Assembly (NCBI GenBank): GCA_963702035.1
Contig: OY969700.1
Coordinates: 2,301,915 to 2,365,914 of the forward strand
Direction: 5' to 3'
DNA from: an uncultured Solirubrobacterales bacterium
GTDB lineage: Bacteria > Actinomycetota > Thermoleophilia > Solirubrobacterales > 70-9
Length of the DNA: 64,000 nt
The notes under the pieces were generated by a model. The model did not search any database. It saw nothing but the letters and a program-made list of their open reading frames with translations, and was not told the origin of the DNA. Made by a program: the position numbers and the translations under genes. Positions 4,948 through 6,473 of this stretch are shown piece by piece (the first letter of the stretch is position 1; each line of letters begins with the position of its first letter).

Positions 4948-6473
4948 CATATGGAGAGCTCCTCGTCAAGTGCCCAGGGTCGATCGGGCCCCTGACGGGC
5001 CGCTGCTGTCCAGCGGCGCTCTCGGGGCGACACGGGCGGGATCCAGGTACGTCGACTGCACCGTCAGCCTCATATGCGGGGGCTGGCTACCCCATGACCG
5101 CCGATTCGTCGCGTGGCCTGCAGTCTTGAAGCGGGCGCGGCCGGCGAGCACATCCGCCGACTGCCCGAGGACGCAACGCAGGCCGCAAAGCGGCGACGTG
5201 CTGGCCTCACTTGCTCCCGTGTCGCCCCGACAGCGTCGAGGGCGTTCCTTTCGCGGTGCCTCAGCCCAGCTGACCCACCTCCCACACGAAGGCACCCAGC
5301 TCGCGCGCCAACGCGATCCTGACCACGTTGGCGGGCTTGCCACGCTCGAGGCGAAGGCGTTGCCAACGGTTGTGCAGACGCCGCTGGGCGCGCCAGCCGA
5401 TCGCACAGGCACGGGGGTCGGCGCCGCGCTGGCGCTTCTCCAGTGCGCTGCCCACCCGGGGCTGGTGGCGGTAGTGGTGGGCTGCCTCGACGAGAAGACG
5501 GCGGGCGTGCGGAGAGCCGGCCTTGGTGATCGGCCCGCGCCGGCTTCGCTCACCGGAGGAGTGCTCGGAGGGCACGATGCCGAAGTAGGCCATCAGCGAG
5601 GCCGGGCGCTCAAAGCGCCTCAGGTCTCCCGCCTCTGCGCACAGGCCAAGCGCCGTCAGCGTGTTGATCCCGCGCAGGCAGCGCAGCCGGGCGATCGTCT
5701 CGGCCCACGGCGACTCAGGCCACAGCTCCTCGATCGTCCGCTCAGAAGCACCCCGTCGCTGTTCGAGCGCCACCACCGCGGCCAGGTAGTCCTCGAGCAC
5801 GGCCCGCGAGGCGCCGTCGGGGAACCTGATCGCCTCCAGCCAACGCAAGTGGGCCTGTGTCCAGGCAGAACCGGGGCCCTCCCAGCGCAGCTCGCGGCGC
5901 AAGAGGAACTTGCCGAGCCGGTGACGGGCTCTCATCAGGTCGGCTCGGATCGCCTCCCGGCAGCGGGTCAGATCTCGGAAGCGCTCCTCCTCGGGGGTCG
6001 GGATGCGCACGAAGCGCAGTTCCCCCGCGAGGCACAGCCGCGCCAGCCGCTCGGCGTCGCGGCGATCGGTCTTGACCCGGTCGCTCGGCGCTTTGGGTAT
6101 CGACCCCGGGGCACAGACGCGCACGTCGAGGTGACGTTCGGCGCCCCCTCGCGCGAGCCCGAAGCCGGTCGGTCCGGCCTCATAGACCGCGAGGAGGGGA
6201 GCCTCGAGCCCTTCCAGGAAGTCGAGTGCTCCTCGCGGTGGGCCGTTCAGTCGTCGCGAGCGGAGCTCGCCTGTCTCGGGATGAAGAACGCAGGCGTGAG
6301 TCTGTGTGGCGTGGACGTCGAGTCCCACCACGCTTTTAGGCTGGGGCATGTCGGCACCTCCCATGATTGGGGTGTCGGCCGCGGGGACATCCCGCGGCCC
6401 AGTCCCCGCATCGTCATGCGCGGGGTGCCGACCTACCTACCGCTGGGGCCGGTCAGCACTCCATACGGTCTTG
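4948..6473 (-). mobile_element. IS110-family insertion sequence, copy 1 (about 1.53 kb; ends +/-5 nt)
   Basis: Identical to 12861-14386 (offset 7913) apart from 2 SNPs (5053 C/T, 6302 C/G). No terminal inverted repeats, as is typical of IS110. Confidence 0.9.
5261..6364 (-). CDS. IS110 family transposase (DEDD N-terminal domain)
   Basis: 367 aa: VVGLDVHATQTHACVL... C-terminal region reads LRCLRGINTLTALGLCAEAGDLRRFERPASLMAYFGIVPSEHSSGE. Confidence 0.95.
   Translation of the reverse strand: MGGADMPQPKSVVGLDVHATQTHACVLHPETGELRSRRLNGPPRGALDFLEGLEAPLLAVYEAGPTGFGLARGGAERHLDVRVCAPGSIPKAPSDRVKTDRRDAERLARLCLAGELRFVRIPTPEEERFRDLTRCREAIRADLMRARHRLGKFLLRRELRWEGPGSAWTQAHLRWLEAIRFPDGASRAVLEDYLAAVVALEQRRGASERTIEELWPESPWAETIARLRCLRGINTLTALGLCAEAGDLRRFERPASLMAYFGIVPSEHSSGERSRRGPITKAGSPHARRLLVEAAHHYRHQPRVGSALEKRQRGADPRACAIGWRAQRRLHNRWQRLRLERGKPANVVRIALARELGAFVWEVGQLG

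What the first reader, a model, noticed from the sequence alone, without database searches (positions are those of the whole stretch)
4948..5260. 313-bp non-coding 3' end of the IS110 element may encode a guide (bridge/seek) RNA
The transposase (6364 to 5261, minus strand) has only ~109 bp of upstream non-coding sequence but ~313 bp downstream. This is the layout reported for IS1111-type members, whose guide RNA lies 3' of the recombinase gene. Within this end, AGGACGCA (5168-5175) is the exact reverse complement of the target flank TGCGTCCT (4940-4947). In addition, CCTCATATG (5068-5076) repeats the target/IS junction at 4945-4953. Guide loops matching target and donor are what a bridge RNA would contain. 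I cannot fold the RNA reliably by eye.
Basis: inference. Interest (0 to 1): 0.6.

Follow-up and report, generated by a model that had tools for sequence, protein, structure and literature searches.

The report
Bridge (seek) RNA of an IS1111-type element
The 313-base tail behind the transposase gene of this insertion sequence does encode a folded guide RNA whose short loop segments match the insertion site and the element's own ends, which makes it an ordinary new example of the RNA-guided "bridge recombinase" elements described in 2024.

Summary
Observation confirmed and interpretation supported. The element spans window 4948-6471 with the transposase on the minus strand. It has 7 near-identical copies in the 2.6-Mb genome. 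It sits at a CT core (AG in transposase orientation) inside a ~110-bp genomic repeat, with no target duplication.

Each falls on one side of a conserved loop of a ~217-nt structured RNA (5234..5018, minus strand).
- UGCGUC-CU (5175..5168) is the 5' side of a target-binding internal loop.
- CAUAUG-AG-G (5076..5068) is the 3' guide beside a donor hairpin.
- I found the two partners: UCA-AG-AC (5129..5123) and CGGUC (5100..5096).

In this one sequence the matches are only modestly beyond chance (1.3% of shuffles). The decisive evidence comes from 61 related elements.
- The target guides follow each element's own flanks (0 of 10,000 permutations).
- In 15 of 16 independent sister pairs the own flank fits better than the swapped one (p = 6e-5).
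- A handshake base follows the flank in 48 of 61.
- The stems covary, and their G.U pairs fit only the transposase-sense strand.

Soil metatranscriptome contigs cover only the RNA region. Donor-loop covariation rests on few independent events, and the helix closing that loop is unresolved. This is a new member of a known kind.

The parts
4948..6471 (-). Insertion sequence, 1,524 bp counting one copy of the core dinucleotide. There are 7 copies in the genome.
   Evidence: copies. (empty target sites with a single CT).
4946..4947 (.). Core dinucleotide CT at the left junction (AG in transposase orientation).
   Evidence: AG is conserved at both junctions of 64 related elements.
6470..6471 (.). 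Core dinucleotide CT at the right junction.
5261..6364 (-). DEDD transposase / bridge recombinase gene, 367 aa. The likely true start is the ATG at 6351..6349, behind a GGGAGG site, giving 362 aa.
   Evidence: PF01548 + PF02371. NCBIfam NF033542, 'IS110 family RNA-guided transposase', 223 bits against a cut-off of 140. Relatives align from residue 6 onward.
5018..5234 (-). Predicted bridge/seek RNA body, about 217 nt, from the 5' arm to the 3' arm of the outer stem P1.
   Evidence: Family conservation.
5216..5234 (-). P1 outer stem, 5' arm.
   Evidence: It pairs with 5018-5036 (18 of 19 bp). In 61 of 61 relatives the own arms pair far better than foreign arms.
5018..5036 (-). P1 outer stem, 3' arm.
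5178..5184 (-). Target-loop basal stem, 5' strand (GGCCUGC). It pairs with 5115-5121.
   Evidence: (own -18.8 against foreign -12.2 kcal/mol).
5168..5175 (-). Target guide a: UGCGUC+CU, on the 5' side of the target-binding loop. It is complementary to the core plus the flank next to the element's 3' end.
   Evidence: Covariation: own 3.58 nt against foreign 0.62 nt, 0 of 10,000 permutations. 15 of 16 sister pairs.
5163..5167 (-). Target-loop inner stem, 5' strand (CGGGC). It pairs with 5132-5136.
   Evidence: 95% paired in the family; A-U to G-C exchange.
5140..5161 (-). Apical hairpin of the target arm.
   Evidence: Its length varies in relatives. The differences in the RNA contig fall in its loop.
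5132..5136 (-). Target-loop inner stem, 3' strand (GCCCG).
5123..5129 (-). Target guide b: UCA+AG, then the handshake bases AC. It lies on the 3' side of the target-binding loop. It has the same sense as the flank next to the element's 5' end, plus the core, plus the first 2 nt of the element.
   Evidence: 6 of 7 copies have TGA at that flank. Covariation: own 2.56 against foreign 1.12, 0 of 10,000. AC is present in 39 of 61.
5115..5121 (-). Target-loop basal stem, 3' strand (GCAGGCC).
5096..5100 (-). Donor guide d: CGGUC. It is complementary to the G of the core plus ACCG, the first bases of the element's 5' end.
   Evidence: All 21 relatives with end ACCG carry CGGUC. Elements with ACCC or ACCA carry GGGUC or UGGUC only in part.
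5079..5093 (-). Donor hairpin (GGGG-loop-CCCC).
   Evidence: It is 100% paired, with C-G, A-U and G-C all seen at one position.
5068..5076 (-). Donor guide c: CAUAUG+AG, then the handshake base G. It has the same sense as the element's 3' end, plus the core, plus the first flank base.
   Evidence: The last base of the end (G or C) changed 3 times on the transposase tree and the guide followed 3 of 3 times. The handshake base equals the flank base in 48 of 61, 0 of 20,000 permutations.
4999..5017 (-). Hairpin directly after the RNA body; a possible terminator or processing site.
   Evidence: A hairpin at the same place in relatives is visible. Its function is inferred.
4964..4969 (-). TTGACG, a -35-like hexamer facing out of the element's 3' end.
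   Evidence: TTGACN lies 16 nt from the core in 56 of 61 relatives. In a circle junction this puts it 17 nt from G+ACCGT, +ACAAT or +ACCAT. Promoter function is inferred.
4950..4960 (.). Subterminal inverted repeat, 3'-end copy (AGCTCTCCATA in transposase orientation).
   Evidence: It matches 6455-6465 in 10 of 11 positions.
6455..6465 (.). Subterminal inverted repeat, 5'-end copy (TATGGAGTGCT in transposase orientation).
6352..6469 (-). Structured 5' non-coding end. A 9-bp stem, GUCGGCACC with GGUGCCGAC, encloses two hairpins and overlaps the ribosome-binding region.
   Evidence: MFE -74.6 kcal/mol, z = -4.6. It is conserved in relatives.
4878..4947 (+). Left part of the interrupted target repeat, a ~110-bp structured genomic repeat.
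   Evidence: about 30 further copies in the genome.

Best explanation
Window 4948-6471 is an active IS1111-type member of the IS110 family. Its 3' non-coding end encodes a bridge RNA (seekRNA) of about 217 nt, in the same sense as the transposase gene.

Architecture. A long outer stem closes the molecule. Inside it are two parts.
- A target arm. Its internal loop carries UGCGUC-CU on the 5' side and UCA-AG(-AC) on the 3' side.
- A donor hairpin. It is flanked by CGGUC on the 5' side and CAUAUG-AG(-G) on the 3' side.

Pairing, read on the window's + strand.
- The empty target is ...CCCTGCGTC-CT-TGA...
- The joined ends of the excised circle would read ...ACGGT-CT-CATATG...
- The first guide of each pair pairs with the bottom strand to the left of, and including, the core.
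- The second guide pairs with the top strand from the core rightward.
- The extra AC can pair with the donor bases next to the core after strand exchange. The extra G can do the same with the target base. These are handshake bases.

Mechanism. The recombinase, bound to this RNA, would bring the circularised element and a copy of the genomic repeat together. It would exchange strands at the CT core and insert the element without a duplication.

What is shown: the anatomy, the boundaries, the family-wide covariation of target guides and handshake base with the flanks, the stem covariation and its strand, and the presence of the sequence in RNA libraries.

What is inferred: binding to the recombinase, the requirement for transposition, transcription as the 3' part of the transposase transcript from a promoter assembled at the circle junction, and processing.
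For: - Boundaries and core: 7 copies and the empty sites.
- Protein: PF01548 + PF02371; NF033542 'IS110 family RNA-guided transposase', 223 bits.
- Fold: MFE z = -2.9, with the guides in loops.
- Target guides across 59 related elements with full-length flanks (of the 61 aligned): guide a scores 3.58 nt against its own flank and 0.62 against foreign flanks. Guide b scores 2.56 against 1.12. Both give 0 of 10,000 permutations.
- Sister pairs: 16 phylogenetically separate pairs have 85-97% identical RNA backbones but different guides. The own flank is better than the swapped flank in 15, tied in 1 and worse in 0, p = 6e-5.
- Handshake base: it equals the flank base in 48 of 61, 0 of 20,000 permutations.
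- Donor guide c followed the G/C change at the element's end in 3 of 3 independent changes.
- Outer stem: own -38.9 against foreign -21.3 kcal/mol, in 61 of 61.
- Inner stems: 95-100% paired, with two-sided changes.
- Strand: 122 G.U cells against 32 A.C cells, so the fold belongs to the transposase-sense strand.
- RNA libraries: soil metatranscriptome contigs of 152 nt (5067-5218, 3 differences) and 178 nt (5063-5238) lie wholly inside the RNA. In run X21 depth is zero over the adjacent coding stretch 5236-5838.
- Published mechanism and layout: PMC11208160, PMC11208158, PMC11187229.
Against: - No experiment on this element exists. The RNA-library contigs are shallow (depth about 2-4), carry no strand, and could be DNA carry-over.
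- Donor-guide covariation rests on 3-5 independent changes. It does not reach significance. Guide d is only 5 nt and does not complement the second core base.
- The helix that closes the donor loop could not be fixed. In this clade ACGUCG (5199..5194) with CGACGU (5054..5049) competes with a pairing to the bases just after the target arm.
- RNAalifold on the raw MAFFT alignment recovers only 21 pairs, because the subfamilies are out of register.
- The window's own copy matches guide b in only CA+AG.
- The junction -10 in this element (GACCGT) is weak.
Confidence: 0.88

Rival explanations
1. Target-seeking RNA only. The RNA guides target choice through the loop at 5175..5123. The element's own ends are recognised by the protein through the subterminal inverted repeats. 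On this reading the matches at 5100..5096 and 5076..5068 are conserved sequence without a guide role.
For: - Donor-guide covariation is sparse. There are 3 of 3 changes for guide c. For guide d the counts are 2-3 of 3-4, 1-2 of 5 and about 1 of 3. No sign test can reach 0.05.
- Many relatives carry a mismatch between guide d and their end.
- No closing helix for a donor loop was resolved.
- Clear 11-bp subterminal repeats exist.
- The seekRNA paper describes target matches and stresses end recognition as a possible difference of IS1111 elements (PMC11187229).
Against: - Guide c matches the end plus core over 8 nt. It tracked every G/C change of the end, and no change went the opposite way.
- The base after guide c follows the target flank in 48 of 61. 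This is expected only if that segment sits at the exchange point with DNA.
- All 21 elements with end ACCG carry CGGUC.
- Donor loops were predicted for IS1111 elements by Durrant et al. (PMC11208160).
Confidence: 0.08
2. There is no guide function. The 3' end is a structured untranslated region (terminator, mRNA stabiliser or regulatory small RNA), and the matches to the junctions are chance or leftovers of the repeat.
For: - In this single sequence a match of 8 nt or more to a junction appears in 27% of shuffles.
- The ISPpu9 element has a downstream small RNA, Ssr9, that is not needed for transposition (PMC12288879).
- No Rfam family matches.
Against: - Guide positions change with the flanks in relatives while the backbone stays 85-97% identical (15 of 16 pairs).
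- The permutation tests give 0 of 10,000.
- The handshake base covaries with the flank.
- Both strands of the target are matched around one core, exactly as in characterised systems.
Confidence: 0.03

Closest known systems
IS1111-group seekRNAs / bridge RNAs (ISEc11, ISKpn4, ISPa11; Siddiquee et al. 2024, PMC11187229; predicted in 93% of IS1111 elements by Durrant et al. 2024, PMC11208160)
   Same: - The long non-coding end lies 3' of the transposase gene.
- Subterminal inverted repeats are present.
- There is an AG core in transposase orientation and no target duplication.
- The RNA has the same sense as the gene.
- The segment complementary to the top strand lies 5' of the one complementary to the bottom strand, and the two overlap at the insertion point.
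- The target is a repeated palindromic element, as for ISPa11.
- The target arm of about 85 nt is the size of the reported short seekRNAs (82-96 nt).
   Different: - The host is an uncultured Solirubrobacterales genome.
- The transposase has 362-367 aa, against 330-350 typical for the group.
- The best named enterobacterial relative is only about 38% identical.
- The whole RNA is clamped by a 19-25 bp outer stem.
- The guides are short: 6+2 and 3+2 nt for the target.
- Phylogenetic placement inside the IS1111 clade was not tested with named references.
IS621 bridge RNA (IS110 group; Durrant et al. 2024, PMC11208160; Hiraizumi et al. 2024, PMC11208158)
   Same: - There are two binding modules, one for the target and one for the donor.
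- Each has a 5' guide for the bottom strand left of the core and a 3' guide for the top strand right of the core, when the CT core strand is taken as top.
- The core is included in the pairings.
- One or two handshake bases follow the 3' guides and match the other DNA partner.
- The recombinase is a DEDD/Tnp protein.
   Different: - The RNA lies behind the gene rather than in front of it.
- The RNA is transcribed opposite to the strand on which the core reads CT.
- The donor guides flank a hairpin in what folds as a multi-branch junction, not a clearly closed internal loop.
- The protein shows no significant sequence match to IS621 in the PDB search. There is only a weak hit to ISCro4, E = 1e-5, over the C-terminal domain.
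REP-targeting IS110-family elements (ISPpu9/ISPpu10, ISPa11; Tobes and Pareja 2006, cited in PMC11208160; PMC12288879)
   Same: - There are several identical copies.
- Each copy is inserted at one fixed position of an abundant extragenic palindromic repeat.
- The junctions carry an AG dinucleotide.
- The 5' untranslated region is structured.
   Different: - The target repeat is a different, undescribed ~110-bp family of Solirubrobacterales.
- No orphan copies of the RNA gene were found in this genome, unlike ssr9 of ISPpu9.
- A junction promoter is plausible here, whereas ISPpu9 lacks one.

Membership tests
IS110 family (DEDD, RNA-guided transposase) | Transposase with an N-terminal DEDD/RuvC-like domain and a C-terminal Tnp domain. 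| tested here: met
   PF01548 (E = 1.4e-13) and PF02371 (E = 7.6e-20). NF033542, 223 bits against a cut-off of 140. A G-x-x-P-x4-SG motif is visible in the translation.
IS110 family (DEDD, RNA-guided transposase) | Site-specific insertion at a shared core dinucleotide, without target-site duplication. | tested here: met
   All 7 copies lie after ...CCCTGCGTC-CT. Empty repeats carry one CT.
IS1111 group | Subterminal inverted repeats of 7-17 bp. | tested here: met
   TATGGAG(A/T)GCT at 4950-4960 and 6455-6465, 10 of 11 positions, set 2 and 4 nt inside the ends. The repeat sequence changes together at both ends in relatives.
IS1111 group | The longer non-coding end lies downstream of the transposase gene. 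| tested here: met
   313 nt downstream against 107-120 nt upstream. The downstream end is 237-336 nt in all 64 relatives with defined ends.
IS1111 group | The transposase falls inside the IS1111 clade when placed with named reference elements. | not tested
   No named ISfinder references were at hand. The nearest enterobacterial plasmid relative (38% identity) is unannotated, but it has the same layout.
Bridge RNA / seekRNA | A structured RNA is encoded in the non-coding end, and its structure is conserved across orthologues. | tested here: met
   Outer stem and target-arm stems: own against foreign partners. Pair counts and compensatory changes. The excess of G.U over A.C fixes the strand.
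Bridge RNA / seekRNA | The target-binding loop has two segments that pair with opposite strands of the target, overlap at the core, and covary with the target. | tested here: met
   (0 of 10,000 permutations; 15 of 16 sister pairs). The WIN guides are at 5175..5168 and 5129..5125.
Bridge RNA / seekRNA | The donor-binding loop has two segments that pair with the joined element ends and covary with them. | tested here: inconclusive
   Complementarity is present: 8 nt at 5076..5069 and 5 nt at 5100..5096. Covariation is always in the right direction but rests on few independent changes. The closing helix is unresolved.
Bridge RNA / seekRNA | Handshake bases next to the 3' guides match the other DNA partner. 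| tested here: met
   The base after guide c equals the flank base in 48 of 61, 0 of 20,000 permutations. AC after guide b equals the first two bases of the element in 39 of 61. The concept comes from PMC11208158.
Bridge RNA / seekRNA | The RNA is expressed. | tested here: inconclusive
   Two soil metatranscriptome contigs lie wholly within 5063-5238, at 98% and 90% identity. In run X21 depth is zero over the neighbouring coding sequence 5236-5838. Depth is low, there is no strand information, and DNA carry-over is not excluded.
Bridge RNA / seekRNA | The RNA binds the recombinase, is required for recombination and can be reprogrammed. | not testable with these tools
   This needs purification and transposition assays.
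Bridge RNA / seekRNA | A match to the published IS110/IS1111 covariance models. | not testable with these tools
   Those models are not in Rfam 15. A scan of 4000-7500 at E up to 10 gave no relevant hit.

The most novel reading that the evidence does not exclude
The family may represent a distinct bridge-RNA architecture. One 19-25 bp clamp stem would close the whole molecule. The donor guides would sit in a multi-branch junction around a hairpin rather than in a closed internal loop. The left donor guide would leave the second core base unpaired. Target recognition would need only about 6+2 and 3+2 nt. If so, these Solirubrobacterales elements would use a mechanistic variant of donor recognition, shared between RNA and the subterminal repeats. 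They would also offer dozens of naturally reprogrammed guide sets on a nearly constant scaffold.
Probability: 0.2. Interest if true: 0.45.

Novelty: new member of a known kind. Interest (0 to 1): 0.3.

Why it matters
The result shows that a reader working from raw sequence correctly spotted a bridge RNA. It also gives a fully annotated example from an uncultured soil actinobacterial lineage: ends, core, four guide segments, handshake bases and a candidate junction promoter.

The 61 related elements form a natural reprogramming series. Their RNA scaffolds are 85-97% identical while their guides and targets differ. Such a series is useful for learning the guide rules of IS1111-type recombinases, which are less studied than IS621.

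The result also explains why all seven copies sit at one position of an abundant genomic repeat. It predicts 29 further unoccupied sites of the form TGCGTC-CT-TG in this genome.

It does not change the current picture of these systems.

Tried and rejected
- Rfam 15 scan of 4000-7500 at E up to 10. It returned only chance hits (microRNA and snoRNA models) and nothing in the non-coding end.
- RNAalifold on the MAFFT alignment of the 61 ends. It gave only 21 pairs because the subfamilies are out of register in the outer and basal stems. I replaced it with two analyses. One was an alignment-free comparison of duplex energies for own against foreign arms. The other was pair counts on the well-aligned helices.
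- A closing helix for the donor loop (CGACG with CGUCG). It is too conserved to test, and own and foreign duplexes score alike, -7.8 against -7.6 kcal/mol. It remains unresolved.
- My first candidate for the second donor guide, ACGGU at 5065..5061. I rejected it because it is not conserved even in the closest relative. The conserved segment is CGGUC at 5100..5096.
- Exact-match scanning of whole non-coding ends. It was too crude for the short guides and was replaced by column-anchored scoring.
- PDB sequence search. It gave only a weak hit to the ISCro4 transposase.
- Plasmid search for named relatives. Annotations read only 'IS110 family transposase', so no named-reference placement was done.
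- I did not pass a hand-written structure string to the pair-counting tool, nor build a covariance model. The counts were made in a script instead.
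Full report
**What is there**

- AGGACGCA (5168-5175) is the reverse complement of TGCGTCCT (4940-4947). The match extends to 9 nt.
- CCTCATATG (5068-5076) repeats 4945-4953.
- The minus-strand ORF 6364..5261 carries the two IS110-family domains PF01548 and PF02371.
- The ORF scores 223 bits on NCBIfam NF033542, 'IS110 family RNA-guided transposase', against a cut-off of 140.
- The likely start is the second ATG (6351..6349). A GGGAGG site precedes it, and relatives align from residue 6.

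**Boundaries**

The window lies in a 2.6-Mb single-contig genome. That genome holds seven copies about 99-100% identical over window 4935-6473. One more copy lies in this window at about 12861-14384.

All copies are preceded on the + strand by ...CCCTGCGTC-CT. All are followed by CT-TG..., and six of the seven by CT-TGA.

The flanks belong to a ~110-bp structured repeat with about 30 further copies. Unoccupied copies read ...CCCTGCGTC-CT-TG... with a single CT. It follows that:
- the element is 4948-6471 (1,524 bp);
- the core dinucleotide is CT, or AG in transposase orientation;
- there is no target duplication.

Subterminal inverted repeats TATGGAG(A/T)GCT lie at 4950-4960 and 6455-6465. The non-coding ends are 313 nt (3') and 107-120 nt (5'). 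This is the IS1111-type layout (PMC11187229, PMC11208160).

**Is the pair of matches more than chance?**

Taken alone, only modestly. In 2,000 dinucleotide-preserving shuffles, a match of 8 nt or more to a junction occurs in 27%. A 9-mer together with an 8-mer occurs in 1.3%.

**Relatives**

A scan of one genome per species returned 555 stretches encoding a relative. The best 80 loci were kept, at 43-87% protein identity. Nearly all come from uncultured Solirubrobacterales and other Actinomycetota.

In 64 of these, plus the window element, I could place both ends from conserved motifs.
- The 3' end reads TTGACN - about 16 nt - ...CCATAT(C/G) - AG.
- The 5' end reads AG - ACC(N)TATGG.

An alignment of 61 of the 3' non-coding ends (A1) shows constant blocks separated by short, highly variable segments.

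**Target guides**

The first variable segment sits just before a conserved CU and the inner stem. In the window this is UGCGUC-CU, 5175..5168. It is complementary to AG plus the flank next to the element's 3' end.
- The mean perfect extension beyond the core is 3.58 nt against the own flank and 0.62 nt against other elements' flanks.
- This gives 0 of 10,000 permutations.

The second variable segment lies on the other side of the same loop. In the window this is UCA-AG-AC, 5129..5123. It repeats the last bases of the other flank plus AG.
- Own flanks score 2.56 against 1.12 for foreign flanks, again 0 of 10,000.

To remove the effect of shared ancestry I took 16 non-overlapping sister pairs.
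- Their RNA backbones are 85-97% identical, but their guides and flanks differ.
- Each guide fits its own flank better than its sister's in 15 pairs. One pair tied and none went the other way, p = 6e-5.

**Donor guides and handshake bases**

It repeats the element's 3' end plus the core.
- The last base of that end (G or C) changed three times on a transposase tree. The guide followed each time.
- The base after AG equals the first flank base in 48 of 61 elements, 0 of 20,000 permutations.
- This behaviour matches the 'handshake guide' of IS621 (PMC11208158).
- The AC after guide b equals the first two bases of the element in 39 of 61.

On the 5' side of the hairpin, CGGUC (5100..5096) complements the core G plus ACCG of the 5' end.
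- All 21 elements with ACCG have CGGUC.
- Elements with ACCC or ACCA have the matching base only in part.
- With 3-5 independent changes, no test reaches significance.

Donor recognition by RNA is therefore likely but less secure than target recognition.

**Structure**

The minus-strand RNA folds with z = -2.9. Four results apply across the family.
- The arms of a 19-25 bp outer stem differ completely between subfamilies. Even so, each pairs with its own partner at -38.9 kcal/mol against -21.3 with foreign partners. This holds in 61 of 61 elements.
- The basal stem of the target arm behaves likewise: -18.8 against -12.2, in 48 of 61.
- The inner stem, the start of the apical stem and the donor hairpin are 86-100% paired. 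They show two-sided exchanges such as C-G/G-C, C-G/U-A and A-U/G-C.
- Two U.G pairs are nearly invariant. G.U cells outnumber A.C cells 122 to 32, so the fold belongs to the transposase-sense strand.

Folding with the guides held single-stranded gives one common plan in 14 representatives. The plan is an outer stem, a long target arm with an internal loop, and a donor hairpin with flanking single strands in a central junction.

The helix that closes the donor side is not resolved. In this clade ACGUCG (5199..5194) with CGACGU (5054..5049) has one compensatory change in a relative (by eye). It competes with another pairing.

**Expression**

No isolate RNA data exist. Four soil and ice metatranscriptome runs were laid on 4700-6700.
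- One run has a 152-nt contig equal to 5067-5218 with 3 differences. The two listed differences lie in the apical loop of the target arm.
- Another run has a 178-nt contig equal to 5063-5238 with 18 differences.
- Both contigs lie wholly inside the RNA.
- In the first of these runs (X21), depth is zero over the adjacent coding stretch 5236-5838. In the second (X23), only shallow pieces of relatives lie there.

This fits a stable RNA. However, the depth is low, the contigs carry no direction, and DNA carry-over cannot be excluded.

**How it is probably made (inference)**

TTGACN lies 16 nt from the core in 56 of 61 elements. Joining the ends in a circle would therefore place it 17 nt from G+ACCGT, +ACAAT or +ACCAT. 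That would be a promoter assembled at the junction, as reported for this family.

The transposase message would then carry the RNA as its 3' part. A hairpin (5017..4999) follows the RNA.

The 5' end is itself strongly folded (z = -4.6). One of its stems overlaps the ribosome-binding region. This may keep read-through transcripts untranslated.

**Comparison with known systems**

In transposase orientation, the segment complementary to the top strand lies 5' of the one complementary to the bottom strand. This is the order reported for IS1111 seekRNAs and the reverse of IS110 types (PMC11187229).

Read on the strand where the core is CT, the logic equals that of IS621. The 5' guide of each module pairs with the bottom strand left of the core. 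The 3' guide pairs with the top strand right of the core, and handshake bases follow the 3' guides (PMC11208160, PMC11208158).

Durrant et al. predicted bridge RNAs in 93% of IS1111 elements, located in the right end. The kind is therefore known, and this is a new, well-supported member.

**What differs or remains open**
- The clamp-like outer stem.
- The short guides.
- The unpaired second core base opposite guide d.
- The unresolved donor-loop closure.
- The untested placement among named IS1111 references. The best plasmid relatives are about 38-44% identical and annotated only as IS110 family.

**Genome context**

The genome holds 29 unoccupied sites TGCGTC-CT-TG, nine of them with TGA, and 7 occupied ones. 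Targets are therefore not limiting.

Earlier notes of this scan had already recorded two things: both window copies sit at the same box of repeat family F1, and the two copies are near-identical. I re-derived both.

Noticed in passing
window 12861-14384: A second copy of the same element lies in the same orientation. It sits at the same position of another copy of the target repeat. Its RNA region differs by one base (window 5053 equivalent). In the RNA this turns GUCGAC into GUCAAC, inside the candidate stem CGACGU.
   Followed up: partly
window 4878-4947 and 6472-6490; about 30 more copies genome-wide, e.g. window 7830-7899 and 37141-37237: The target is a ~110-bp structured repeat. It has a conserved core GGGTCACGCAC-N4-GTGCGCTCCCC and a 3' box CTCCCTGCGTCC. 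Only the subfamily that continues with TTG or TAG offers the CT-TG site the element uses. Subfamilies that continue with CCCGA or ACCGA are never occupied.
   Followed up: partly
window 6352-6469 (minus strand): The 5' untranslated end of the element is strongly folded (MFE -74.6 kcal/mol, z = -4.6). A 9-bp long-range stem encloses two hairpins and overlaps the ribosome-binding site and the region before the ATG at 6351. It looks like a translational brake on read-through transcripts, and it is conserved in relatives.
   Followed up: partly
own genome C1:2398568-2399695 (locus L008, outside the window): A second, single-copy element of the same family has about 66% DNA identity. Its 3' end has the same plan: donor hairpin, AUAUCAG guide, hairpin, TTGACA, and an end CCATATC-AG. 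It belongs to the L041/L042-like subgroup and has a different target.
   Followed up: partly
own genome C1:2551212-2552754 (locus L007): One of the seven copies carries a 4-nt duplication at the 3' end of the element (CATATGGTATGG in place of CATATGG on the + strand), next to the junction.
   Followed up: no
loci L088, L090, L091, L095, L099, L102, L106, L107: Eight elements from different metagenome-assembled genomes share one conserved target, GC(C/G)-AG-TGTTC(C/G)GGAATG. They also share a matching guide, GAACACU. This suggests that this sublineage aims at a conserved gene or repeat.
   Followed up: no
locus L111 (Klebsiella pneumoniae plasmid NZ_CP076519.1, 5915-9919): An unannotated IS1111-type element has an in-frame stop in its transposase. 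It has a 3' non-coding end of about 330 nt, subterminal repeats TGACCTTT/AAAGGTCA and TTGACA near the end. The protein is 38% identical to the window's transposase.
   Followed up: no
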